Virus record (IMG/VR): IMGVR_UViG_3300024297_000002
Origin: an uncultured virus (IMG/VR IMGVR_UViG_3300024297_000002)
Taxonomy: Duplodnaviria > Heunggongvirae > Uroviricota > Caudoviricetes
Direction: 5' to 3' (one strand)
DNA length: 57,584 nt
The notes beneath the pieces are model-generated. The model did not search any database, was not told where the DNA came from, and saw only the letters and a program-made list of their open reading frames with translations. Each line of letters begins with the position of its first letter. The stretch's first letter is position 1. Shown piece after piece: positions 9,785 through 57,343 of the stretch. The position numbers and the translations under genes are program-made.

Positions 9785-10225
9785 ATGGCTATGAGATTTG
9801 CAAGAGGAAAATATAGCCTCAAAAATCCAGAAAAGTATATTGGAATTAAAACACCCACCTACAGAAGCAGTTGGGAACACGCATTTATGAGATTATGCGA
9901 TGAACATCCTAACGTGGCAAAGTGGGCAAGTGAATCAATAAAAATTCCTTACAGACATCCTATAACAGGAAAATTTACAATATATGTGCCAGATTTTTTT
10001 ATTGTTTACATAGATAAAGATGGAAAAAAACACGCAGAATTAATTGAAGTAAAACCAGCGGCACAATCATCAATGGAAAAAGCAGGAAAGAGCAGAGGTA
10101 AGCAGATGCAAGTAGTAGTTAATACTGCAAAATGGGAGGCCGCTAACGCCTATGCTAAACAGAACAGAGTTACGTTTAGAGTGGTTTCAGAAGAACAATT
10201 ATTCCACAATGGTAATCGTAAATAA
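9785..10225 (+). CDS. Head completion nuclease (T4 gp4-like, PD-(D/E)xK)
   Basis: KNPEKY, YRSSWE, WASE, YVPDF, IEVKP, NTAKWEAA. Confidence 0.9.
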   Translation: MAMRFARGKYSLKNPEKYIGIKTPTYRSSWEHAFMRLCDEHPNVAKWASESIKIPYRHPITGKFTIYVPDFFIVYIDKDGKKHAELIEVKPAAQSSMEKAGKSRGKQMQVVVNTAKWEAANAYAKQNRVTFRVVSEEQLFHNGNRK

Positions 10226-48318: not shown

Positions 48319-48348
48319 GATAATCTTATTTACGATAAAAGTCTAAAT

Positions 48349-48951
48349 TTAGGCTTTATTATCTTCTTCTCTGCTATGCACAATTTTGTCTGCTAATCCG
48401 TAAGCAATAGATTCTTCGGAAGTCATGAACTTGTCTCGTTCCATGTCTGCTTTAAGTTTGTCTAATGTTTGTCCTGTGTGCTTCTCGTAAATTTTTGTAA
48501 GTTCATCTTTCCATCTTAATAATTCTTTTGCTTGGATTTCAACATCTGTTGCTTGTCCTCTTGCACCACCTAACGGTTGGTGTATCATGTGTCTTGAGTG
48601 AGGTAACATCATACGTTTACCTTTAGTTCCTGCTGAAGCCAACAACGATCCCATAGAACAGGCTTGTCCAATTACAATAGTTTGTATATCAGATTTAACA
48701 TATTGCATGGTGTCGTATATGGCCATACCAGCAGTAACTAATCCGCCAGGGGAGTTTATGTATAAAACTATATCTTTGCCAGGTGCTTGTGATTCTAAGA
48801 ATAACAACTGAGCACATAACACAGAAGCGGTATGTTCACCAATTGGTCCTTCTAACATAATAATTCTGTCTTTAAGTAAACGAGAAAAGATGTCATAACT
48901 TCTTTCGCCTTTGCTTGTTTGCTCTATTACAATTGGTACTAGTGAACTCAT
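48349..48951 (-). CDS. clpP: ATP-dependent Clp protease proteolytic subunit
   Basis: [42 protein letters not shown]-17-TATTAT 6 nt before ATG. Confidence 0.97.
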
Positions 48952-49001
48952 ACTCATATAATAATACATTTCCTTTCGAATGTCAACCTTGTTTACTTTT
49001 T

Positions 49002-49046
49002 GCAGGTGGGTGGTGTATTGGCACCACCCTTCCAATATTAACCTGC
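49002..49046 (-). ncRNA. Structured 45-nt element (minihelix/pseudoknot-like) directly after the tRNA-like RNA
   Basis: GCAGGT/ACCTGC outer stem, GGGTGGTG/CACCACCC hairpin, loop CCAATA complementary to upstream TATTGG. Confidence 0.55.
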
Positions 49047-49136
49047 TGGTACGGTTTACAGGATTTGAACCTGTATAAAAATAGATGAACTATTGCGTCT
49101 AACCCTCATGAGTCTCCCCACTTCCGCCAAAACCGC
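49047..49136 (-). ncRNA. Non-canonical tRNA-like RNA (expanded D-loop, 5-nt anticodon loop)
   Basis: Acceptor GCGGTTT/AAACCGT + ACCA; T-arm ACAGG-TTCAAAT-CCTGT; Leu-like GCG/CGC D-stem. Confidence 0.75.
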
Positions 49137-49143
49137 AATTATT

Positions 49144-49172
49144 ATTATAGATGAATTGTATTAACTTTGCAA
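49144..49172 (-). promoter_or_regulatory. Sigma70 promoter of the tRNA-like RNA
   Basis: TTGCAA-17-TATAAT, 7 nt before G1. Confidence 0.75.
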
Positions 49173-49175
49173 GAG

Positions 49176-49574
49176 TTATAGTTCGTTTATTCCTTCGTTC
49201 ATTCCTTGCTCTAACCCTGTTATTAGACCTGTTAAAATTGCAATACCAAATAATATTGCTAGTATGATAATAGGACTTGCTAACCAAAGATACCAATAGT
49301 GTCTGAGTATTCCTCTGCCTAGTTCTAAACGTTTCTTTCTGTTATCCATAAACCAATGCACAACAAATTTAATAACTCGTTTAAGATTTTTAGAAATAAA
49401 CTTTTTGAACAACCAACGTAATACTCTCATAACAATTAATATTGGAGAACTTAAAACGTCAAATACTATTAAGAATACGTCAACACTCAAGTCGACAATG
49501 TTATCGGCAGTTGCGGCTTTACGAAATCTCTGTCGCAGTGTAGGTTTGGTAGATATTATATCTCTGTCTGCCAT
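49176..49574 (-). CDS. Hypothetical membrane protein
   Basis: Hydrophobic segments; TAATG coupling to the HtrA-like gene. Confidence 0.65.
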   Translation of the reverse strand: MADRDIISTKPTLRQRFRKAATADNIVDLSVDVFLIVFDVLSSPILIVMRVLRWLFKKFISKNLKRVIKFVVHWFMDNRKKRLELGRGILRHYWYLWLASPIIILAILFGIAILTGLITGLEQGMNEGINEL

Positions 49575-50683
49575 TAGTTCTGCTCAGGATCTTTACCAAA
49601 CACTCTTACCTGTGTTGGTTCTGCTTTGCCAAGTACAACGTTATACGTTTTATACTTGCCGTTTCTATAAATTTTTATACTAATAGTATCACCGGGCATC
49701 TTCTTCCAGAGTATTCTAATAACTTGATTAGTAACTTGTACTTTTTCGCCATCAATAGAAACTATTATGTCACCTTGTTTTATACCATATTGCTCTGCCG
49801 CTCCACCTTCTGATAAACCTTTTACTTCTAAATAATGTTCTTTGCCTGAATCTCTTAATTCATAAAACAGATCTTGATCTTCTATTATTCCCATTAGGAT
49901 ACCTATAGATGGTTTTATATGTTTGCCAAATTCAAGTATATGGTTTGCTACTCTTTCAACTAATGCAGTTGGAACCGAATACCCATATCCTACATAATAC
50001 TTTGTCGGCGATATGATTAATGTGTTTACTCCAATTACATCACCTTGCTCATTCAATAAAGGACCTCCGGAGTTACCCGAATTGATAACTGCATCTGTTT
50101 GCAGATAACTTACCCAACTTGATTGTTGATTTGGTCTTGTATCGTATCCTATAATACCTGTTGTCAGTGACCACATTTGTCCTGTGCCATGTCCTAACGC
50201 AAATACTGTGTCACCTATTAATGGATCTTCTGTTGCAAACTTTAATATACCGTGATCAATAGTTGGTGTTGCCGGAAGTTTTAACACGGCAATATCAGAC
50301 TCAACATCAAAGCCTACAACTATTACACCATTAATTTCATAAGGATGTCCCCATGCATAAATTTTAATTGATGTTGCGTTTTGAACTACATGATAATTTG
50401 TAACAATATGTCTTTCATCTATAAAGAATCCTGTACCCATAGCAACCTTTGGTGGGAACAACGGAATTACTTCCGGTTCCGGTGGATCTATATGTAACGG
50501 AGGGGGCAGTGACTCATTACTGTTTGGGCCATTAGGAAACTTTAAAAACGATGTTTGCTCTGTGCTAATCAGTACTACTGATTCAAATGCGTTTTCCCAC
50601 TTCCATTCTCGAGTATCTTCTTGAGCAATAGCAGGAAAAGAAATAGAGATTATTAATATTGCAACAAAAAGTAGTCTTTTCAT
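49574..50683 (-). CDS. htrA: HtrA/DegP-family serine protease with PDZ domain
   Basis: Signal peptide, GTGF, TNYHV, DIAVL, QTDAVINSGNSGGPL, C-terminal PDZ. Confidence 0.92.
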   Translation of the reverse strand: MKRLLFVAILIISISFPAIAQEDTREWKWENAFESVVLISTEQTSFLKFPNGPNSNESLPPPLHIDPPEPEVIPLFPPKVAMGTGFFIDERHIVTNYHVVQNATSIKIYAWGHPYEINGVIVVGFDVESDIAVLKLPATPTIDHGILKFATEDPLIGDTVFALGHGTGQMWSLTTGIIGYDTRPNQQSSWVSYLQTDAVINSGNSGGPLLNEQGDVIGVNTLIISPTKYYVGYGYSVPTALVERVANHILEFGKHIKPSIGILMGIIEDQDLFYELRDSGKEHYLEVKGLSEGGAAEQYGIKQGDIIVSIDGEKVQVTNQVIRILWKKMPGDTISIKIYRNGKYKTYNVVLGKAEPTQVRVFGKDPEQN

Positions 50684-50702
50684 GCAAATATTTATTGTAA
50701 AA

Positions 50703-51473
50703 TTACAGTATTTTTTTGTCGTGTATGAATTGTAGCAGGAGGTCTGCCCATTGGTGATGTCCCTTTTGGGAAGGATGAGCGTCATTAAAAGATTTTCTCA
50801 AACCTTGTTGAGCACAATACTCGAAGTGTGACTGAACATAATCGGTATTGGGTACTGTTACCGTTTCGTTTTTTGTCTTCATTTCGTTGTAAATTTTAAT
50901 GTTTTCTTTAACGTGTTCCGATGTTTCAAAGTTATAGAAACGATCTGTGTCAACGGCACCTTTTAAATTTTTTAAATCTCCGTCGTCGTGCAGTTCATTT
51001 GATAATGCCCAGTACATCAAATAAGGAATGTTATGTAATTTAAAAAAGTCTTGTAGTGTTAAAATATTTGTGTACAGTCTAACTGTTGCCGCCATTTCGA
51101 TATCAATATCTTTGTCACGTGCTATCCATTCGTTTTCCCAAAGTCTCCACGTACCCCACTGATAAGAAAACTTACCTATCTCGTTTGTTCTTTTAACACC
51201 TTTCATTCTATCGTAATCTGTTTTGCCATGGATGTAATCCCACCGTTGTCCAGATGACCAACCGATAGTAACAAAAGTATCTTTGAATCTGTCTGGATTA
51301 TTATAGAACCAATGCATAGTAGTAGTAACCATTCTGTCGTTACCCCTGCCGCCTTTGGCTAATGTTATAGTTGGCAGATTTAAATGTTCACCTAACTTCT
51401 GATGACAATTCATAAATGCTTTGCTAGTACTAAAACTGCAACCGTTACTTAAATGATTTATAATGTTTTTCAC
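50703..51473 (-). CDS. SGNH-like hypothetical protein
   Basis: NGCSF, G.GN, IGWS...R, DAHPS..GH. Confidence 0.6.
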   Translation of the reverse strand: MKNIINHLSNGCSFSTSKAFMNCHQKLGEHLNLPTITLAKGGRGNDRMVTTTMHWFYNNPDRFKDTFVTIGWSSGQRWDYIHGKTDYDRMKGVKRTNEIGKFSYQWGTWRLWENEWIARDKDIDIEMAATVRLYTNILTLQDFFKLHNIPYLMYWALSNELHDDGDLKNLKGAVDTDRFYNFETSEHVKENIKIYNEMKTKNETVTVPNTDYVQSHFEYCAQQGLRKSFNDAHPSQKGHHQWADLLLQFIHDKKIL

Positions 51474-52122: not shown

Positions 52123-52446
52123 ATGAAACTGTCAGGAAATTGGAAAACAGACGGCAAGACAACTGTTAGCGAATCAAACTATTCAGTTGTTGACAACGAA
52201 ACACTGAAAACAATGACTCTGTCAGGAATGACAATCCAACCCAACAGCGACTCATTCAGACACGGACACAAAGGACATGAAGAAATTTATATGTTCGTGC
52301 GAGGCACAGGATCAATGCAACTCAACAATGATTCCAAGTTTGGGGTTGCACCAGGAGACATTGTGTTGATACCGGACGGTACTACACACGAAGTCTGGAA
52401 CACCGGAGGAGAAGAATTATATTTCTTAATGATATATGGAAATTGA
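52123..52446 (+). CDS. Cupin domain protein
   Basis: H.H...EEIY....G.G, GD...IP....H...NTG; start 5 nt after TAAATA. Confidence 0.85.
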   Translation: MKLSGNWKTDGKTTVSESNYSVVDNETLKTMTLSGMTIQPNSDSFRHGHKGHEEIYMFVRGTGSMQLNNDSKFGVAPGDIVLIPDGTTHEVWNTGGEELYFLMIYGN

Positions 52447-53293
52447 CACAGATCACGGAACACTAGAAGCAACCATACCCGATAATCAAAAAGGTGTGGG
52501 TGTTGCAATCAGTGGCGGAATGGATTCCGCTACACTGCTCTATATGTTATGCAGACAGATCAGAGACAGACAACTTGACATTCCTGTATACTGTTACATA
52601 GTTGCATATGATTACGACAGGGGTTCATTGTACAACGGTGGACTTGTTATCAAACATATGCGTAAAGAGTTTCCGGACGTGAAAATTCATGCACAGATGT
52701 TTGTTACAGCAGAAGCAATAGGTAGCATGAAGGCACAGTTCGCAGGTGCCATGTTTCACGAAACGTTGCGTAAAAATAAATGGACGGGGACAGAATTTAG
52801 ATTATGGTTTGGATTGACTTCCAATCCACAGGATGATTCTTTTAAGTTTGAAACTCCTAAAGAATGGTATGTCACGCCCGATGATGCAAGACAACCTGGC
52901 AACATTGACTTAAAAGCAAAACCCAGATACGGTATAGGTGCTTGTCATCCGTTTGTGCTTGTGGACAAAAGAGTTATTGTTCAAGCAGTATGGAAGATGG
53001 ACCTGTGGTACTGCTTTGATACAATCACAAACTCTTGCACTAACATTAAAGAGTATGACTGTGGCAGTTGTTGGTGGTGTCAAGAAAGAGCATGGGCAAC
53101 AAAAATTTCAGTGCCAGAGGAGGATCAGCCTAGAAGTGGCGTACAAAAATTAATTCATTACAGCACACAAATACCTATCAGTAAGTTGTGGAGAGATGGT
53201 GTTGTGTGGACCAAGGAAGGCTACGAGGCCAGAATAAAATTCGAAGAAGAGAATCCTCAGTTTTTTAAAACGTTTGAACAACGAGTATCTTAA
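52436..53293 (+). CDS. QueC-like PP-loop ATPase (paralog 1)
   Basis: SGGMDS PP-loop; PF...DK; SC-x7-CxxCxxC-ER. Confidence 0.75.
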   Translation: MEIDTDHGTLEATIPDNQKGVGVAISGGMDSATLLYMLCRQIRDRQLDIPVYCYIVAYDYDRGSLYNGGLVIKHMRKEFPDVKIHAQMFVTAEAIGSMKAQFAGAMFHETLRKNKWTGTEFRLWFGLTSNPQDDSFKFETPKEWYVTPDDARQPGNIDLKAKPRYGIGACHPFVLVDKRVIVQAVWKMDLWYCFDTITNSCTNIKEYDCGSCWWCQERAWATKISVPEEDQPRSGVQKLIHYSTQIPISKLWRDGVVWTKEGYEARIKFEEENPQFFKTFEQRVS

Positions 53294-54394
53294 ATGATAC
53301 TGACGACCAAACACGGAACAATTGAAGCAACAATTAGTCCTGTCACGAAGGCTGTCATGGTTGCGGTCAGTGGTGGAATGGATTCTGCCGTTCTACTCTA
53401 TATGCTTTGCAAACAGATACGTGATAACAATTTAGGAATACCTGTGTACACCGGCACGGCCTCCTACAACAGTGACAGGGTTGCCACCTTTCATGCTTCG
53501 ATGGTAGTGAAGCATATGAGAAAGGAGTTCCCGGATATAACTATCCACCCGATGTACTGGACAGGGGAAGGCAACGTTGGCGAGATCAAACCACTGTTGG
53601 TTGAAACTATGTACAGCGATATAAGATTAAAAAATGGTTGGACAAAACATCAGTTCAAGTTGTGGTGGGGTGTTACCGGAAATCCAAGTGACGATAGTTT
53701 CAAGTTTGTGGAACCGGAGGGACACTACGTAGTTCCCCGAGAACCAAACCATTCACCTGCAAAGGTTAGGTACGGCTTGGGTTTCGCAAATCCATTTGCG
53801 AGGATAGACAAGAGACTGATTGTTGCCGCACAGATAGAATACGGATTGTTTGAATGTTACACTAGCATAACAAACAGTTGCACGTCTTTAACTGAATACC
53901 AGTGCAACAAGTGTTGGTGGTGCCAGGAACGTGACTGGGCGATAGAACAGGTTGTTCCAAAAGAACTTGTGGCTCCAAAGGATACTGCGCCAATGAGTCA
54001 TTACGACAAATTAGGAATTGATAAAAAATGGAAAGCGGGTGTTAGATGGAACAAGGAAGCATACCTGGAACGACTCAAAATGGAAGAGGAGCATTTGTCT
54101 GCAAGTGATAAACTTGTATGGGCAAAGCGATTTCTGGAGGGGATGGCTAAGGATTGCGGCACACTAGACACCAGCAAATTTAAACTAGGTGTGCGTTATA
54201 TGGAATATTCCATTAAAGAGGACAGGTATTATATAAGTGCCGGCAAGGGCGAAGAAAGAATAGGACCATTACCGACCATAAGGGACTGCTGGCCAATGTT
54301 TGATGATGTCGAGATAGTTGATTGTGCTAACGAAATACAATTGATGCTGGAAACTGGTGTTAACCCTGGGGAGACGTTACCGCCTCCCGCATGA
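53294..54394 (+). CDS. QueC-like PP-loop ATPase (paralog 2) with C-terminal extension
   Basis: SGGMDS; PF...DK; SC-x7-CxxCWWCQER. Confidence 0.75.
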   Translation: MILTTKHGTIEATISPVTKAVMVAVSGGMDSAVLLYMLCKQIRDNNLGIPVYTGTASYNSDRVATFHASMVVKHMRKEFPDITIHPMYWTGEGNVGEIKPLLVETMYSDIRLKNGWTKHQFKLWWGVTGNPSDDSFKFVEPEGHYVVPREPNHSPAKVRYGLGFANPFARIDKRLIVAAQIEYGLFECYTSITNSCTSLTEYQCNKCWWCQERDWAIEQVVPKELVAPKDTAPMSHYDKLGIDKKWKAGVRWNKEAYLERLKMEEEHLSASDKLVWAKRFLEGMAKDCGTLDTSKFKLGVRYMEYSIKEDRYYISAGKGEERIGPLPTIRDCWPMFDDVEIVDCANEIQLMLETGVNPGETLPPPA

Positions 54395-54409: not shown

Positions 54410-55339
54410 TTAGAAACTAAATTTGAATCCAACAGACATACCGGAGGTATCTGTTGCGTTTGAATTGTCGGCCATTTCATATGCGCCGTACATTTCAAGT
54501 TTTTCTGTGATTGATCTTTTTACACCCACTGTCGTATAGCCGTTGCCATCTTCCACTTTTGCATAACCCAACTGAACTGTTGTGTCATCCATAGTGTGTT
54601 GTGCAACGATTTCGTTTGCGTTCACGTCTGTGGTTGTGTCTTTGGTTGTGTAGTTGTACCCAACCGAAGTGTCATCACTCAATGCAACTGTTACGCCTGC
54701 ACCCATGTAAGTGATGTCGTTGACTTTATCATCAGAATATGCCACACCAACATCTATGCTTTCGCTGATAGATACTGTTGCCGCTGATTCATATACGTCA
54801 ACACCCGACTTACCGGTCGAACCGTCAACTTTGATTTGATTATCAAGTGTCAGTGCGCCAATTGAGTTCGAGTATGTTACTGTGTGTGAATCTCTGCTAA
54901 AAAGTTTTTGAGCCGCTTTTCCACCATACTCAGGAAAAATGTCTGTCTTAGATGTTACAGCATTTTTGAATACAGAGTTTTGTCTACCCGCTGATAGAGT
55001 TCCTGCGTCTCCCATGTCTACACCTGCGTATGCAAGTTTAGAATCAAAAGGGTTAGAGCCTGTGTCGTCGGTGTCTACATCAACTTCTATTGTTGCAAAT
55101 CCTGTTACGCCTTCTGCCAACTCTTCTGAGAAGTTAACACCAATGGAAGAACCGTTGTTCTCTGCCTTTGATGTTGCGTTGCCGTTGCTGTCTTCGTTGT
55201 TAGATATCATGTAGTTCAATGAACCGTAGACATCCATCTCCGCCGCTTCGGCAGGAGCAGGTTTAAACACCCACCCTAGTATTCCCAATGCGACGATAAT
55301 CGCCACACCCAGGCTTACTTTTTTCTTGGTTATTTTCAT
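54410..55339 (-). CDS. Outer-membrane porin (Gram-negative general porin fold)
   Basis: Signal peptide ending AEA, VYG, S.IG....E.L..G, AYAG, alternating beta pattern, C-terminal Phe; AAGGAG SD. Confidence 0.88.
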   Translation of the reverse strand: MKITKKKVSLGVAIIVALGILGWVFKPAPAEAAEMDVYGSLNYMISNNEDSNGNATSKAENNGSSIGVNFSEELAEGVTGFATIEVDVDTDDTGSNPFDSKLAYAGVDMGDAGTLSAGRQNSVFKNAVTSKTDIFPEYGGKAAQKLFSRDSHTVTYSNSIGALTLDNQIKVDGSTGKSGVDVYESAATVSISESIDVGVAYSDDKVNDITYMGAGVTVALSDDTSVGYNYTTKDTTTDVNANEIVAQHTMDDTTVQLGYAKVEDGNGYTTVGVKRSITEKLEMYGAYEMADNSNATDTSGMSVGFKFSF

Positions 55340-56053: not shown

Positions 56054-57343
56054 TTAAAACAAAAAAGAAAACATTTCTGGATTTACTGTTTTGAGTGTGT
56101 TGCCGCGAATTTTTTCAACTGCTGTTGTGAGTTTTTGGAAATGCTTACGATATTTGGGGTCTTGTGTTTCTGGGAACAGTGCTGGATTCAATTGTTTGCT
56201 ATAAAAGTCACTCCATTGTGCGTGAGGCACTTGAGCAAATCTATTATATATTGTTTCTGCTTGTCTTTTATTAAGCAAGTTACTAAATGCTTGATCGCCT
56301 GTCACTTGATCCGGCCAGTTGGTCGCTGGATCTAATCCTACGTCTTGCATCCACTCATACCATTCATGCCATTTGTTTACTGTGAACACACTGACAGCAG
56401 ACTGAACTTCTAATTGTATTCCGTTGTCTTCTTTGGCTAACTGTACCCATTTCTTAGCATTGTTAGTATATTCATTCCATTTAGTTCCATATCGTACGTA
56501 TTCTGCTAATGCTCCTGTGCTCTCACCAGATATACGCAAGTACACGTTCTTCATACGAGTAAACGATTGTATAATACTGTCTTTTGGAAACAATGAGTTG
56601 TTGGTGTTGATATACAATGATACTTTGGATAGATCACAACGATCTGCCAGTCTTGTAAGGAACTCATCAAATATACGAATCATGAACGGCTCACCACCTT
56701 TTATATAAAGCATACGCAGTTCTGATAGATCGGACAATAGTATTTGCTCCATTATATGATACTCGTTGTCGTGTGTATGATATTCTGAGACTTTGTTCTG
56801 TGCAAAGTATTCTGGCTGATCAGGAAACTCTATGTTCTGTAACTGTTTAGAAGTCTTATTCCATTCTGATGATGAATAAGCATTACAGTACACACATTGG
56901 AAATTGCAAAAGTTAGAGAACATCACATCGAGATGTACTATCTTACCCGGTGCATGACGTTCTGGTACTCGTTGATGTGCTCTGCCACGCAACGATGAGA
57001 ATACTGTTTCACCTACTTTGGATGCATCTATATTAACATAGCCATATGTTTTTTCACGAACACGACATTTAGTACATGGGCCTTTAGCAAGTTTAGGATA
57101 TGTAAAAGTTGAATCTGTATTAACGTCTTCGAGGTAACTGTTTAGTGCATAGTTGTTGTGTCGTTCACGTGATCCATTCTTAAGTTTAGTAACATCAAAG
57201 TAACAACATGGTGTAACTGCAAATGTATCTTTATCAATTGCCGATGATATACATACGCCATTGGTTATGAACGCACATTCTTTATTGTTTAATAAGTGCT
57301 TATGTGGATTCTGGTCTCTGAACTTCTTGCTTATTGTTGGCAT
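56054..57343 (-). CDS. Twitch-domain radical SAM protein
   Basis: N-terminal C...PCC...CTKC; CNFQCVYC..SSS.W; GGEPF; TN; EYVRYG..W. Confidence 0.9.
   Translation of the reverse strand: MPTISKKFRDQNPHKHLLNNKECAFITNGVCISSAIDKDTFAVTPCCYFDVTKLKNGSRERHNNYALNSYLEDVNTDSTFTYPKLAKGPCTKCRVREKTYGYVNIDASKVGETVFSSLRGRAHQRVPERHAPGKIVHLDVMFSNFCNFQCVYCNAYSSSEWNKTSKQLQNIEFPDQPEYFAQNKVSEYHTHDNEYHIMEQILLSDLSELRMLYIKGGEPFMIRIFDEFLTRLADRCDLSKVSLYINTNNSLFPKDSIIQSFTRMKNVYLRISGESTGALAEYVRYGTKWNEYTNNAKKWVQLAKEDNGIQLEVQSAVSVFTVNKWHEWYEWMQDVGLDPATNWPDQVTGDQAFSNLLNKRQAETIYNRFAQVPHAQWSDFYSKQLNPALFPETQDPKYRKHFQKLTTAVEKIRGNTLKTVNPEMFSFLF

What the first reader, a model, noticed from the sequence alone, without database searches (positions are those of the whole stretch)
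49047..49172. Non-canonical tRNA-like RNA with its own promoter and a disabled anticodon arm
Seen: the minus strand reads GCGGTTT-TG-GCG-GAAGTGG-GGAGACTCATGAGGGTTAGA-CGC-AATAG-TTCAT-CTATT-TTTAT-ACAGG-TTCAAAT-CCTGT-AAACCGT-A-CCA. The acceptor stem, T-arm, A73 and CCA are intact. The D-loop is enlarged by an insertion that can fold (GACTC-ATGA-GGGTT). The anticodon arm is a 5-bp stem with a 5-nt loop, so neither CAU nor UCA fits a normal 7-nt loop register. TTGCAA-17-TATAAT places the transcript start at or next to G1. Known: GCGGAA.TGG...AGACGC plus A73 is a tRNA-Leu-like pattern, and bacterial LeuRS largely ignores the anticodon. Inference: the top half appears maintained while decoding is lost, suggesting a non-ribosomal role. 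Options are a decoy against tRNA-targeting defence toxins, an aminoacyl donor (e.g. for L/F-transferase N-degron tagging, given adjacent clpP), or a processing handle for the RNA downstream.
Basis: partly seen in the sequence, partly recalled or inferred. Interest (0 to 1): 0.8.

Follow-up and report, generated by a model that had tools for sequence, protein, structure and literature searches.

The report
Non-decoding tRNA-Leu mimic in marine phage
A small group of large marine phages keeps a tRNA-shaped RNA derived from a leucine tRNA that cannot read codons, has its own promoter and is followed by a conserved knotted hairpin pair, so it is a selected tRNA mimic and not a dead gene, though its job is still unknown.

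Summary
Window 49047-49136 (-) is a 90-nt tRNA-shaped RNA. It has a 7-bp acceptor stem (G1.U72), A73, an encoded CCA, a normal T arm and a 27-nt D loop. A 5-bp/5-nt hairpin stands where the anticodon arm should be. ARAGORN and the whole-window Rfam scan miss it. A local Rfam scan gives tRNA at 35.2 bits (cut-off 29).

It is not a unique decayed copy. I found six distinct relatives in three subtypes, in one viral contig and several metagenome contigs. They keep the acceptor, D stem, T stem and a D-loop hairpin with a GAGA tetraloop through compensatory changes. The anticodon arm differs in each subtype (5-, 8- or 37-nt loop). The core is more conserved than clpP synonymous sites, and the D arm is leucine-tRNA-specific.

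All members start 6-7 nt after a consensus TATAAT. All are followed by a covarying hairpin pair with loop-loop pairing and no terminator. All lie between a DegP-like protease gene and clpP.

My best reading (about 0.4) is a tRNA-mimic punctuation or stability module cut out by host tRNA-processing enzymes. Leucylation, a decoy role and a cis-regulatory role remain open. A pseudogene or a suppressor tRNA is unlikely.

The parts
49144..49172 (-). Sigma-70-type promoter TTGCAA-17-TATAAT. G1 of the RNA lies 7 nt after the -10 hexamer.
   Evidence: 10 of 12 matches. The same geometry holds in 8 of 8 family members: -35 TTGACA-like, 17 nt, TATAAT, then 6-7 nt to position 1.
49047..49136 (-). 90-nt non-decoding tRNA-Leu-like RNA, G1 to CCA.
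   Evidence: Own covariance model R1 scores it 105.9 bits.
49130..49136 (-). Acceptor stem 5' strand (positions 1-7). It pairs with 49051-49057. G1.U72 wobble is invariant and pair 6:67 covaries (U-A / C-G).
49108..49121 (-). Hairpin inserted in the D loop (positions 16-29): 5 bp closed by a GAGA tetraloop. The stretch GGGAGACU is identical in all six relatives.
   Evidence: Pairs 16:29 (G.U / G-C / C-G) and 18:27 (G-C / A-U) covary.
49095..49127 (-). D arm: 3-bp stem GCG/CGC (positions 10-12 / 40-42) around a 27-nt loop, with A14, A15 and UAGA kept.
   Evidence: The motif is tRNA-Leu-specific.
49080..49094 (-). Substitute for the anticodon arm: AAUAG-UUCAU-CUAUU, 5 bp plus a 5-nt loop, 15 nt where a tRNA has 18.
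   Evidence: The loop is UUUAU in L113, 8 nt in L112 and 37 nt in L037/L110.
49058..49074 (-). T arm ACAGG-UUCAAAU-CCUGU.
   Evidence: three of five pairs covary across subtypes.
49047..49050 (-). Discriminator A73 and encoded CCA.
   Evidence: Invariant in 6 of 6 relatives.
49002..49046 (-). Structured element directly behind CCA. Outer stem GCAGGU/ACCUGC, hairpin GGGUGGUG/CACCACCC, and its loop CCAAUA is complementary to upstream UAUUGG (pseudoknot). No U tract follows.
   Evidence: 30 of 2000 loop shuffles reach 6 bp. The equivalent element in four other subtypes has 98.7% of cells paired, and 10 of 20 pairs carry compensatory changes.
48958..48986 (-). Second promoter TTGACA-17-TATTAT for clpP. 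The clpP ATG lies about 7 nt after the -10 hexamer, so the mRNA looks leaderless.
48349..48951 (-). clpP (Clp protease proteolytic subunit).
   Evidence: PF00574 at 269.9 bits. The start MSSLVPIV is conserved in relatives.
49176..49574 (-). 132-aa ORF of unknown function. It ends 4 nt before the -35 hexamer, with no terminator between.
49574..50785 (-). DegP/HtrA-like serine protease (Trypsin_2 + PDZ), the syntenic upstream neighbour.
   Evidence: It lies upstream of the RNA in the window, L113, L112, L110 and L037.

Best explanation
What it is (shown). It is a selected, tRNA-Leu-derived RNA that keeps the tRNA top half: acceptor stem, A73-CCA, D stem, T arm and tertiary-pair nucleotides. It cannot decode, because the anticodon arm is replaced by whatever hairpin each lineage happens to have. 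It is transcribed from its own consensus promoter with no 5' leader. It is followed, without a terminator, by a conserved hairpin pair with loop-loop pairing and then by the next gene.

How it most likely works (inferred). It acts as a tRNA-mimic punctuation and stability module of the degP-like/clpP transcription unit.
- Host tRNA-end enzymes recognise the L-shaped top half.
- RNase P cuts at G1 on read-through transcripts coming from the upstream gene.
- RNase E, RNase Z/BN or RNase P cuts at or just behind CCA.
- This frees a stable CCA-ended tRNA-like RNA.
- It also leaves the downstream mRNA (the 252-aa gene and/or clpP) with a 5' end buried in the pseudoknot.

The released mimic may in addition be leucylated. 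The invariant GAGA hairpin in the D loop probably binds a partner that I cannot name.

My odds: functional and non-decoding about 0.9; this processing/stability mechanism about 0.4.
For: Family and fold. Six distinct sequences fall into three subtypes (window/L109/L113; L037/L110; L112). All 20 core pairs are paired in 120 of 120 cells, 6 pairs carry compensatory changes, and 0 of 500 shuffles reach the covariation score. RNAalifold gives the same helices.

Selection. Core identity against clpP four-fold-degenerate sites is 54/71 vs 29/61 (A-B), 60/71 vs 41/63 (A-C) and 51/71 vs 29/58 (B-C).

Non-decoding. The loop is 5, 8 or 37 nt in the three subtypes, and a UUCG tetraloop in the likely distant relative in L041. 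The window reads well in code 11: 78 ORFs, 93% coding, all three stop codons used.

No leader. Position 1 lies 6-7 nt after TATAAT in 8 of 8 members. Ordinary tRNAs of the same window have leaders, about 56 nt for tRNA-Arg.

Co-transcription.
- No terminator-like site lies between the RNA and the next gene.
- In L110, L112 and L024 the next ORF starts 11-20 nt behind the structured element, with no promoter between.
- The upstream ORF ends 4 nt before the -35 hexamer.
- Contigs from RNA libraries bridge ORF132 + promoter + RNA positions 1-66 (X17), and RNA positions 26-90 + pseudoknot + clpP start (X15). X20's clpP contig runs upstream of the clpP promoter into the pseudoknot. This is weak evidence: contigs only, and DNA carry-over is not excluded.

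Downstream element. 98.7% of 77 cells are paired, 10 of 20 pairs carry compensatory changes, and 0 of 500 shuffles reach this.

Precedent. Plant-mitochondrial t-elements are tRNA-like signals for RNase P/Z at mRNA ends (PMC1920247, abstract read).
Against: - No RNA ends were mapped. The only expression data are assembled contigs.
- A transcript that starts at G1 needs no RNase P. A plain hairpin would stabilise a 5' end, so the mechanism does not explain why a whole tRNA top half is kept.
- It also does not explain why A73-CCA is invariant in 6 of 6, or why 8 nt of the D-loop hairpin are identical across lineages whose synonymous sites are about 50% diverged.
- In the window, L037 and L041, clpP has its own promoter behind the element, so the downstream gene does not depend on this transcript.
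- In the window the structured element starts at the base directly after CCA, which leaves no single-stranded site for RNase E.
- The two putative distant relatives (L024, L041) are not detected by model R1. Their kinship rests on synteny, promoter geometry and the alignable downstream element only.
- With a 1-nt linker and fully paired loops, it is not clear that all three downstream helices can form at once.
Confidence: 0.4

Rival explanations
1. Charged, non-ribosomal leucine carrier. Host LeuRS leucylates the mimic, because it needs A73 and the D/T-loop corner but not the anticodon or variable arm. G1.U72 and the missing anticodon keep the mimic away from EF-Tu and the ribosome. The leucine is passed to a transferase. 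One specific form of this idea is L/F-transferase feeding the N-degron pathway and ClpP.
For: Nucleotides that match the E. coli leucine identity set are invariant in 6 of 6: A73, C2-G71, U8, A14, A15, U48 and the UAGA segment with A20a. U54, U55 and A58 are also kept, and GG is present in the D loop of 4 of 6. Passages of PMC9976931 state that A73, A15-U48, G18G19 and A20a are decisive, and that tRNA-Leu lacking the anticodon and variable arms is still charged (their ref. 53, Larkin 2002, not read). The D-arm motif is Leu-specific: 7 of 11 tRNA-Leu vs 0 of 77 other tRNAs. CCA is encoded. The RNA is syntenic with clpP.
Against: - The 14-nt hairpin sits in the D-loop segment whose length positions G18G19. 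Subtype B has no GG there, and subtype C has U56.
- The putative relatives in L024 and L041 lack a canonical T loop, GG and CCA.
- No Leu_Phe_trans or ClpS was found in 77 window ORFs or in 4 related contig fragments. Those fragments are only 6-23% complete, and a host enzyme could serve.
- The gene that follows in three loci looks like a glycosyltransferase, not a tRNA-dependent transferase (a lead only).
- The effect of G1.U72 on EF-Tu is recalled by analogy with initiator tRNA and was not tested.
Confidence: 0.2
2. Decoy or sponge. An abundant tRNA top-half mimic titrates a host factor that binds acceptor ends or tRNA elbows. Candidates are a defence toxin that modifies or cuts the 3' CCA or the acceptor stem, or a tRNA-processing or tRNA-modifying enzyme.
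For: It has a consensus promoter, a conserved acceptor/A73/CCA and a fixed non-Watson-Crick 1:72 pair. The D-loop hairpin is invariant, which suggests a specific binding partner. Other agents of this scan reported non-decoding tRNA mimics in unrelated phages (unchecked notes).
Against: There is no direct evidence. The anticodon arm is not conserved, so anticodon nucleases are not the target. Catalytic toxins are poorly titrated by a substrate mimic. No defence or anti-defence gene was recognised beside it.
Confidence: 0.15
3. Cis-acting leader RNA. The tRNA-like fold and the hairpin pair form one regulatory unit that controls transcription read-through or translation of the following gene. Possible analogies are a sensor with a tRNA-like fold, a put-like antiterminator, or a T4 gene-32-like pseudoknot operator.
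For: The RNA starts at +1. No terminator follows. The structured element ends 11-20 nt before the next start codon in L110, L112 and L024, with an A/U-rich spacer. Every member carries at least one GNRA-capped extra hairpin that could dock on a helix. The T4 gene 32 operator is a 5' pseudoknot followed by an A/U-rich stretch (PMC3014915, passages).
Against: In the window, L037 and L041 a separate promoter lies between the element and clpP. The invariant ACCA is hard to explain for an internal leader. No Rfam riboswitch or leader family matches at E up to 10 or up to 0.1 in relatives.
Confidence: 0.12
4. Decaying tRNA-Leu pseudogene or assembly artefact with no function.
For: It is missed by ARAGORN and by the whole-window Rfam scan. 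The folding z-score is only -1.35. The family is rare.
Against: An identical copy sits in an independent viral contig, and 14 DNA runs hold the whole stretch. Six distinct relatives show compensatory changes, and the core is better conserved than synonymous sites. Promoter geometry is conserved in 8 of 8.
Confidence: 0.03
5. Working suppressor tRNA. With the closing G-C pair open, the loop GUUCAUC presents anticodon UCA (reads UGA), and L113's GUUUAUC presents UUA (reads UAA).
For: U33 precedes the triplet. Two close variants both give stop-codon anticodons.
Against: - The arm is 15 nt where a tRNA has 18, and position 37 is U.
- Subtypes B and C have 37- and 8-nt loops on the same conserved body.
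- The window uses all three stop codons in 78 ORFs at 93% coding density, 56 of them TAA, so an ochre suppressor would hit the phage's own genes.
Confidence: 0.03

Closest known systems
Canonical class II tRNA-Leu (Rfam RF00005), including phage-encoded tRNA-Leu
   Same: 7-bp acceptor stem, U8, a 3-bp D stem with GAA...UAGA, A73, CCA and a TTCAAAT T loop. Subtypes B and C keep a hairpin variable arm. Phage tRNA-Leu(UAG) genes in L009, L013 and L018 share the GCGG... acceptor start and the CAGG-TTCAAAT-CCTG T arm.
   Different: No 5-bp/7-nt anticodon arm. A 14-nt GAGA hairpin is inserted in the D loop. G1.U72 stands where those tRNA-Leu genes have G1-C72. There is no 5' leader. Subtype A has no long variable arm.
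t-elements of plant mitochondria and the tRNA-punctuation principle (Forner et al. 2007, PMC1920247)
   Same: tRNA-like structures without decoding function placed at mRNA boundaries, thought to be cut by RNase P/Z (abstract). Here the RNA sits between genes of one strand with no terminator.
   Different: This one is from a phage of bacteria. It has its own promoter exactly at position 1, an encoded CCA, isotype-specific nucleotides that are kept, and an attached pseudoknot. Cleavage has not been shown here.
Pseudo-tRNA 'tRNA-Other' of Bacillus cereus (PMC3399842)
   Same: A tRNA-like RNA that does not act in translation yet has a cellular effect (abstract as shown in the search listing).
   Different: It is chromosomal and flanks a genomic island. 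There is no sequence relation, and no D-loop hairpin or pseudoknot. I did not read the paper beyond the listing.
T4 small RNAs RNAC and RNAD
   Same: Small stable RNAs of a T4-type phage, transcribed from the tRNA region, of unknown function (passages of PMC3014915 and PMC9697503).
   Different: Blastn of the element against 50,697 phage records gives no T4 hit. That RNAC and RNAD have tRNA-like ends is my recollection and comes from no call.
tmRNA tRNA-like domain with pseudoknot PK1
   Same: A tRNA-like acceptor/T-arm domain without an anticodon, next to a pseudoknot. There is also a thematic link to ClpP-dependent proteolysis.
   Different: ARAGORN calls no tmRNA. The pair is G3-C70, not G3.U70. 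There is no tag reading frame. The tRNA-like part is contiguous, not split between the two RNA ends, and the pseudoknot lies 3' of CCA.

Membership tests
Canonical decoding tRNA (RF00005) | Covariance-model score at or above the Rfam gathering cut-off. | tested here: met
   35.2 bits against a cut-off of 29 in the local scan. L113 scores 35.8, L109 35.3 and L112 32.3. L037 and L110 give no hit at E up to 0.1. The element is missed in the whole-window scan.
Canonical decoding tRNA (RF00005) | 5-bp anticodon stem with a 7-nt loop presenting an anticodon. | tested here: not met
   The loop is 5 nt in the window, L109 and L113, 8 nt in L112 and 37 nt in L037/L110. ARAGORN makes no call. The review PMC7609411 states that the stem is 5 bp and the loop 7 nt (passage).
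Canonical decoding tRNA (RF00005) | D loop of ordinary size that pairs with the T loop. | tested here: inconclusive
   The D loop is 27 nt and contains a covarying hairpin. GG is present in 4 of 6 sequences and UUC in 5 of 6 T loops. The three-dimensional fold was not tested.
tRNA-Leu identity (bacterial) | A73, U8:A14, A15-U48, A20a and the Leu-type D arm. | tested here: met
   All are invariant in 6 of 6. The D-arm motif occurs in 7 of 11 tRNA-Leu and 0 of 77 other distinct tRNAs. The identity set is taken from PMC9976931 passages.
tRNA-Leu identity (bacterial) | Actual leucylation by LeuRS. | not testable with these tools
   This needs an aminoacylation assay.
tmRNA | Detection by ARAGORN, G3.U70, and a tag reading frame between pseudoknots. 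| tested here: not met
   There is no tmRNA call. G3-C70 is invariant. No internal reading frame exists.
t-element / tRNA punctuation signal | A tRNA-like fold without decoding function at a boundary between co-transcribed genes. | tested here: met
   no terminator, and the next ORF follows directly in 3 of 8 loci.
t-element / tRNA punctuation signal | Endonucleolytic cleavage at its ends by RNase P/Z. | not testable with these tools
   Only assembled RNA-library contigs were available. They cannot show RNA ends.
Bacterial Y RNA (YrlA) with Ro60/Rsr | An Rfam Y-RNA match and a TROVE-domain protein nearby. | tested here: not met
   No such Rfam hit at E up to 10. No TROVE family appears among the Pfam hits of 77 window ORFs. 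The window is only part of the genome.

The most novel reading that the evidence does not exclude
The mimic is a dedicated leucine carrier. Host LeuRS charges it through the anticodon-independent identity set it has kept. G1.U72 and the missing anticodon arm keep it off EF-Tu and the ribosome. The phage uses the Leu-RNA as a private aminoacyl donor, for example for L/F-transferase, to mark host proteins for its own ClpP. That would be the first viral tRNA mimic that rewires proteolysis and not translation.
Probability: 0.08. Interest if true: 0.9.

Novelty: new variant of a known kind. Interest (0 to 1): 0.62.

Why it matters
Phage tRNA genes are normally read as codon-supply or anti-defence spare parts. 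Here a phage lineage has kept a tRNA body for a long time while discarding the decoding end. It has also added a sequence-invariant hairpin and a knotted 3' module.

That points to a use of the tRNA shape itself. The shape could act as a handle for host RNA-processing enzymes, as a chargeable carrier, or as bait for a tRNA-binding protein.

Standard tRNA finders miss the family. Five searches of the held literature found no description of it. Unchecked notes from other windows of this scan report similar mimics in unrelated phages. If those hold, non-decoding tRNA mimics may be a general and overlooked class of phage RNA.

The element is small (90 nt plus 45 nt) and easy to test in vitro.

Tried and rejected
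Searches for more relatives:
- Exact and relaxed 3'-end patterns in viral contigs gave only the identical contig plus ordinary tRNAs.
- D-arm patterns in viral contigs gave only the identical contig plus chance hits in GC-rich coding DNA. One search carried one N too many and returned 4 chance hits.
- None of these scans returned the contig of L037, although it matches the pattern. The collection scans are therefore not exhaustive.
- The genome-contig scan gave 2 chance hits. I found no copy in the representative prokaryote genomes with this pattern.
- Blastn against 50,697 phage records gave only T-arm-sized matches at E of 2 or more.
- Model R1 over the window plus 82 loci and over 27 further loci found only the window and the L037 contig. 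Ordinary tRNAs scored 32.2 bits or less.
- 25 loci found with a DegP-like protein alignment added no new member.

Other checks:
- G001, the record nearest to the window, has no match.
- L040's true tRNA-Leu(UAA) is not a close relative of the element.
- The 252-aa neighbour has no Pfam or PHROG family and no PDB relative. The protein atlas points to nucleotide-sugar transferases.
- Aat and ClpS are absent from 4 related contig fragments. These fragments are 6-23% complete, so this says little.
- RNA-library contigs cover only parts of the element and cannot show ends. Uncovered stretches mean nothing.
- An SD-like reading of GGGAGA in the D-loop hairpin was dropped, because L041's GNRA hairpin lacks it.
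- The structured RNA upstream of clpP in L039 is not a member of this family.
Full report
THE OBSERVATION

Position numbers below run 1-90 along the RNA.
- Acceptor stem GCGGUUU/AAACCGU, with a G1.U72 wobble.
- U8 and G9.
- A 3-bp D stem GCG/CGC around a 27-nt loop.
- AAUAG-UUCAU-CUAUU where the anticodon arm should be.
- A 5-nt variable region.
- T arm ACAGG-UUCAAAU-CCUGU.
- A73 and an encoded CCA.

ARAGORN reports five tRNAs in the window and not this one. The whole-window Rfam gathering scan lists the same five. A local scan gives RF00005 at 35.2 bits against a cut-off of 29. In that alignment 23 nt replace 5 model positions in the D loop, and 5 nt replace 9 in the anticodon loop.

Folding energy alone is unremarkable: z -1.35, and 21 of 200 shuffles fold as well.

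TTGCAA-17-TATAAT at 49172-49144 is confirmed, 10 of 12 matches. Such matches are common in this AT-rich stretch (9 found against 5.5 +/- 2.3 in shuffles), so the promoter call rests on its conservation in relatives, described below.

RELATIVES

An identical copy lies in one IMG/VR contig. Fourteen DNA runs hold the whole stretch, so this is not an assembly accident.

Among 80 clpP-related viral loci, one carries a 132-nt relative upstream of clpP (L037).

A D-arm pattern scan of the metagenome contigs returned 10 loci.
- Six carry the element, giving four distinct sequences: L109, L110, L112 = L115, and L113 = L116.
- Four are chance hits in GC-rich coding DNA.

The scans of viral contigs and prokaryote genomes added nothing. 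They also failed to return the L037 contig, so they are not exhaustive.

No GenBank phage record has the element.

That gives six distinct sequences in three subtypes.
- Subtype A (window, L109, L113) is 90 nt with a 5-nt loop, UUCAU or UUUAU.
- Subtype C (L112) is 101 nt with an 8-nt loop and a short variable hairpin.
- Subtype B (L037, L110) is 132 nt. A 5-bp stem encloses 37 nt, and the variable arm is capped by GCGA.

STRUCTURE AND SELECTION

On the MAFFT alignment, 56 of the window copy's 90 positions are invariant.

I proposed 20 pairs: acceptor 7, D stem 3, D-loop hairpin 5 and T stem 5.
- They are paired in 120 of 120 cells.
- Six pairs show changes on both sides: 6:67, 16:29, 18:27, 49:65, 50:64 and 51:63.
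- 0 of 500 shuffles reach the covariation score.
- Sliding the partners by 1-3 columns drops pairing to 23-47%.

RNAalifold finds the same helices without my input.

The stretch GGGAGACU is identical in all six sequences.

The aligned core is better conserved than four-fold-degenerate sites of the neighbouring clpP:
- 54/71 vs 29/61 for A-B;
- 60/71 vs 41/63 for A-C;
- 51/71 vs 29/58 for B-C.

A decaying pseudogene is therefore very unlikely.

LEUCINE ANCESTRY

I took 88 distinct ARAGORN-called tRNAs from the window and all held loci. The motif 'positions 8-15 UGG[CU]G[GA]AA ... AGAC[GA]C' occurs in 7 of 11 tRNA-Leu and in 0 of 77 others.

Several phage tRNA-Leu(UAG) genes share the GCGG acceptor start and the CAGG-UUCAAAU-CCUG T arm, but they have G1-C72.

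All six family members keep A73, C2-G71, U8, A14, A15, U48 and the UAGA segment. These match the E. coli leucine identity set as summarised in PMC9976931. That review also says that tRNA-Leu without anticodon and variable arms is still charged (passages).

GG in the D loop is present in 4 of 6 members and lost in subtype B.

NOT A DECODER

The arm is 15 nt in subtype A where positions 26-43 of a tRNA take 18. Its loop length is different in every subtype.

Opening the closing G-C pair would give anticodon UCA in the window and UUA in L113. Both read stop codons, and I record this.

Against it, the window reads cleanly in code 11: 78 ORFs, 93% coding, and stop codons TAA 56, TAG 11, TGA 11. Subtypes B and C carry the same body with 37- and 8-nt loops.

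CONTEXT

The window belongs to a T4-type myovirus. It encodes a tail sheath, a T4-type terminase, gp32, a RecA-like protein and a DnaB-like helicase.

Its terminase is closest, at 55% identity, to the Pseudomonas jumbo phage PA5oct group.

Related contigs of 25-88 kb are rated 6-23% complete. This suggests a genome of roughly 400 kb.

The RNA always lies downstream of a DegP/HtrA-like protease gene (window, L113, L112, L110, L037) and upstream of clpP. In L110, L112 and L024 a 252-aa gene lies between the RNA and clpP. That gene looks like a nucleotide-sugar transferase, on a protein-atlas lead only.

PROMOTER AND LEADER

In 8 of 8 loci a TTGACA-like hexamer, 17 nt and TATAAT precede position 1 by 6-7 nt.

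The window's ordinary tRNAs have leaders.

The clpP start codon also sits about 7 nt after its own -10 hexamer. Starting transcripts exactly at the functional 5' end may therefore be the style of this phage.

THE 3' NEIGHBOUR

Directly behind CCA lies a structured element, and no U tract follows it.

In L112, L037, L024 and L041 it consists of three parts:
- a 3-bp hairpin with a 7-nt loop;
- one linker base;
- a 10-bp hairpin whose 7-nt loop is complementary to the first loop.

On that alignment, 98.7% of 77 cells are paired, 10 of 20 pairs have compensatory changes (3 of them in the loop-loop helix), and 0 of 500 shuffles reach this.

The window's version is rearranged but keeps the same logic. 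It has an outer stem and an 8-bp hairpin whose 6-nt loop CCAAUA matches upstream UAUUGG; 30 of 2000 loop shuffles do as well.

Whether all helices can form at once with such short linkers is open.

In L110, L112 and L024 the next ORF starts 11-20 nt behind this element, with no promoter between. The mimic therefore heads that mRNA.

POSSIBLE DISTANT RELATIVES

L024 (1597-1687) and L041 (1443-1541) sit in the same place. They share the promoter geometry, a 7-bp acceptor stem with a weak terminal pair (U2.G71 in L024; A1.C72 in L041), U8-G9, a GUG/CAC D stem, A73 and the alignable downstream element.

The minimum-energy fold of L041 is a cloverleaf:
- the anticodon arm is 7 bp closed by UUCG;
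- the variable arm is closed by GAGA;
- the T loop holds an extra hairpin.

They lack CCA, GG and a canonical T loop, and model R1 does not detect them. I therefore count them as likely relatives only.

EXPRESSION

Six metatranscriptome runs hold 30-42% of the sampled words of 48340-49600. I laid four of them on the window.
- X17 has a contig across ORF132, the promoter and RNA positions 1-66.
- X15 has one across RNA positions 26-90, the pseudoknot and the clpP start.
- X20's clpP contig reaches upstream of the clpP promoter into the pseudoknot.

These are assembled contigs from RNA libraries. They are compatible with read-through transcription, but they cannot show RNA ends or exclude DNA carry-over.

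MECHANISM

Two things are shown:
- The RNA is a selected, non-decoding tRNA-Leu mimic.
- It is transcribed without a leader and continues into a conserved structured element and the next gene.

My preferred mechanism is inferred (about 0.4). The top half serves as a handle for host tRNA-end enzymes. They excise the mimic from read-through and promoter-proximal transcripts, and they leave the downstream message with a structured 5' end. The precedent is the t-elements of plant mitochondria (PMC1920247, abstract).

This reading does not explain the invariant GAGA hairpin or the strict ACCA.

The rivals, with my odds, are:
- a leucylated non-ribosomal carrier, about 0.2; the specific L/F-transferase-ClpP idea is about 0.08, and no Aat or ClpS gene was seen;
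- a decoy for a protein that binds the tRNA top half, 0.15;
- a cis-acting leader, 0.12;
- a pseudogene, 0.03;
- a suppressor tRNA, 0.03.

NOVELTY

Five full-text searches found no description of such a phage RNA. T4 RNAC and RNAD remain without known function and show no sequence match here.

Notes from other windows of this scan list similar non-decoding tRNA mimics in unrelated phages. They are unchecked leads, not evidence, but they suggest a wider class.

I rate this a new variant of a known kind (tRNA-like RNAs and t-elements), with interest 0.62.

Noticed in passing
window 48949-48986 (-); also L037, L113, L041 upstream of clpP: The clpP start codon lies about 6-8 nt after the -10 hexamer of its own consensus promoter. 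The clpP mRNA made from that promoter would be leaderless or nearly so, in several related phages.
   Followed up: partly
L039:960-1210 (+): A different structured RNA of about 220 nt, with its own TTGACC/TATAAT promoter, sits upstream of clpP in a more GC-rich relative. MFE is -79.3 kcal/mol, z is -3.1, and 0 of 200 shuffles fold as well. No Rfam family matches. It is not a member of the family described here.
   Followed up: partly
L039:3102-3149 (-): Glutamine riboswitch (RF01739, 51.5 bits) in a viral contig.
   Followed up: no
window 54410-55339 (-), 52436-54394 (+), 56054-57343 (-): The phage window encodes a Gram-negative porin (Porin_4, 78.5 bits). It also encodes two adjacent QueC-like PP-loop proteins beside a cupin, and a radical-SAM protein. 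This looks like an auxiliary or DNA-modification gene island.
   Followed up: no
window 9785-10225 (+): A TnsA-like endonuclease N-terminal domain (73 bits) lies between structural genes. It may be a free-standing homing-type nuclease.
   Followed up: no
L014:1501-1599 (-) = L019: ARAGORN calls a 99-nt tRNA-Thr(AGU) with a large insert around the anticodon region in a 100-kb viral contig. It may be an intron-bearing tRNA or another aberrant tRNA.
   Followed up: no
L010:440-533 (-): ARAGORN reports a 94-nt 'tRNA-???' with a two-base anticodon inside a phage tRNA array.
   Followed up: no
Viral contigs pattern scans: The contig that holds L037 matches the pattern but was not returned by the collection scan. 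Empty answers from these scans are therefore not proof of absence.
   Followed up: partly
window 49107 (+), position 30 of the RNA: Contigs in two RNA libraries (X15, X17) carry A instead of G at unpaired D-loop position 30. This is a strain variant that leaves all helices intact.
   Followed up: no
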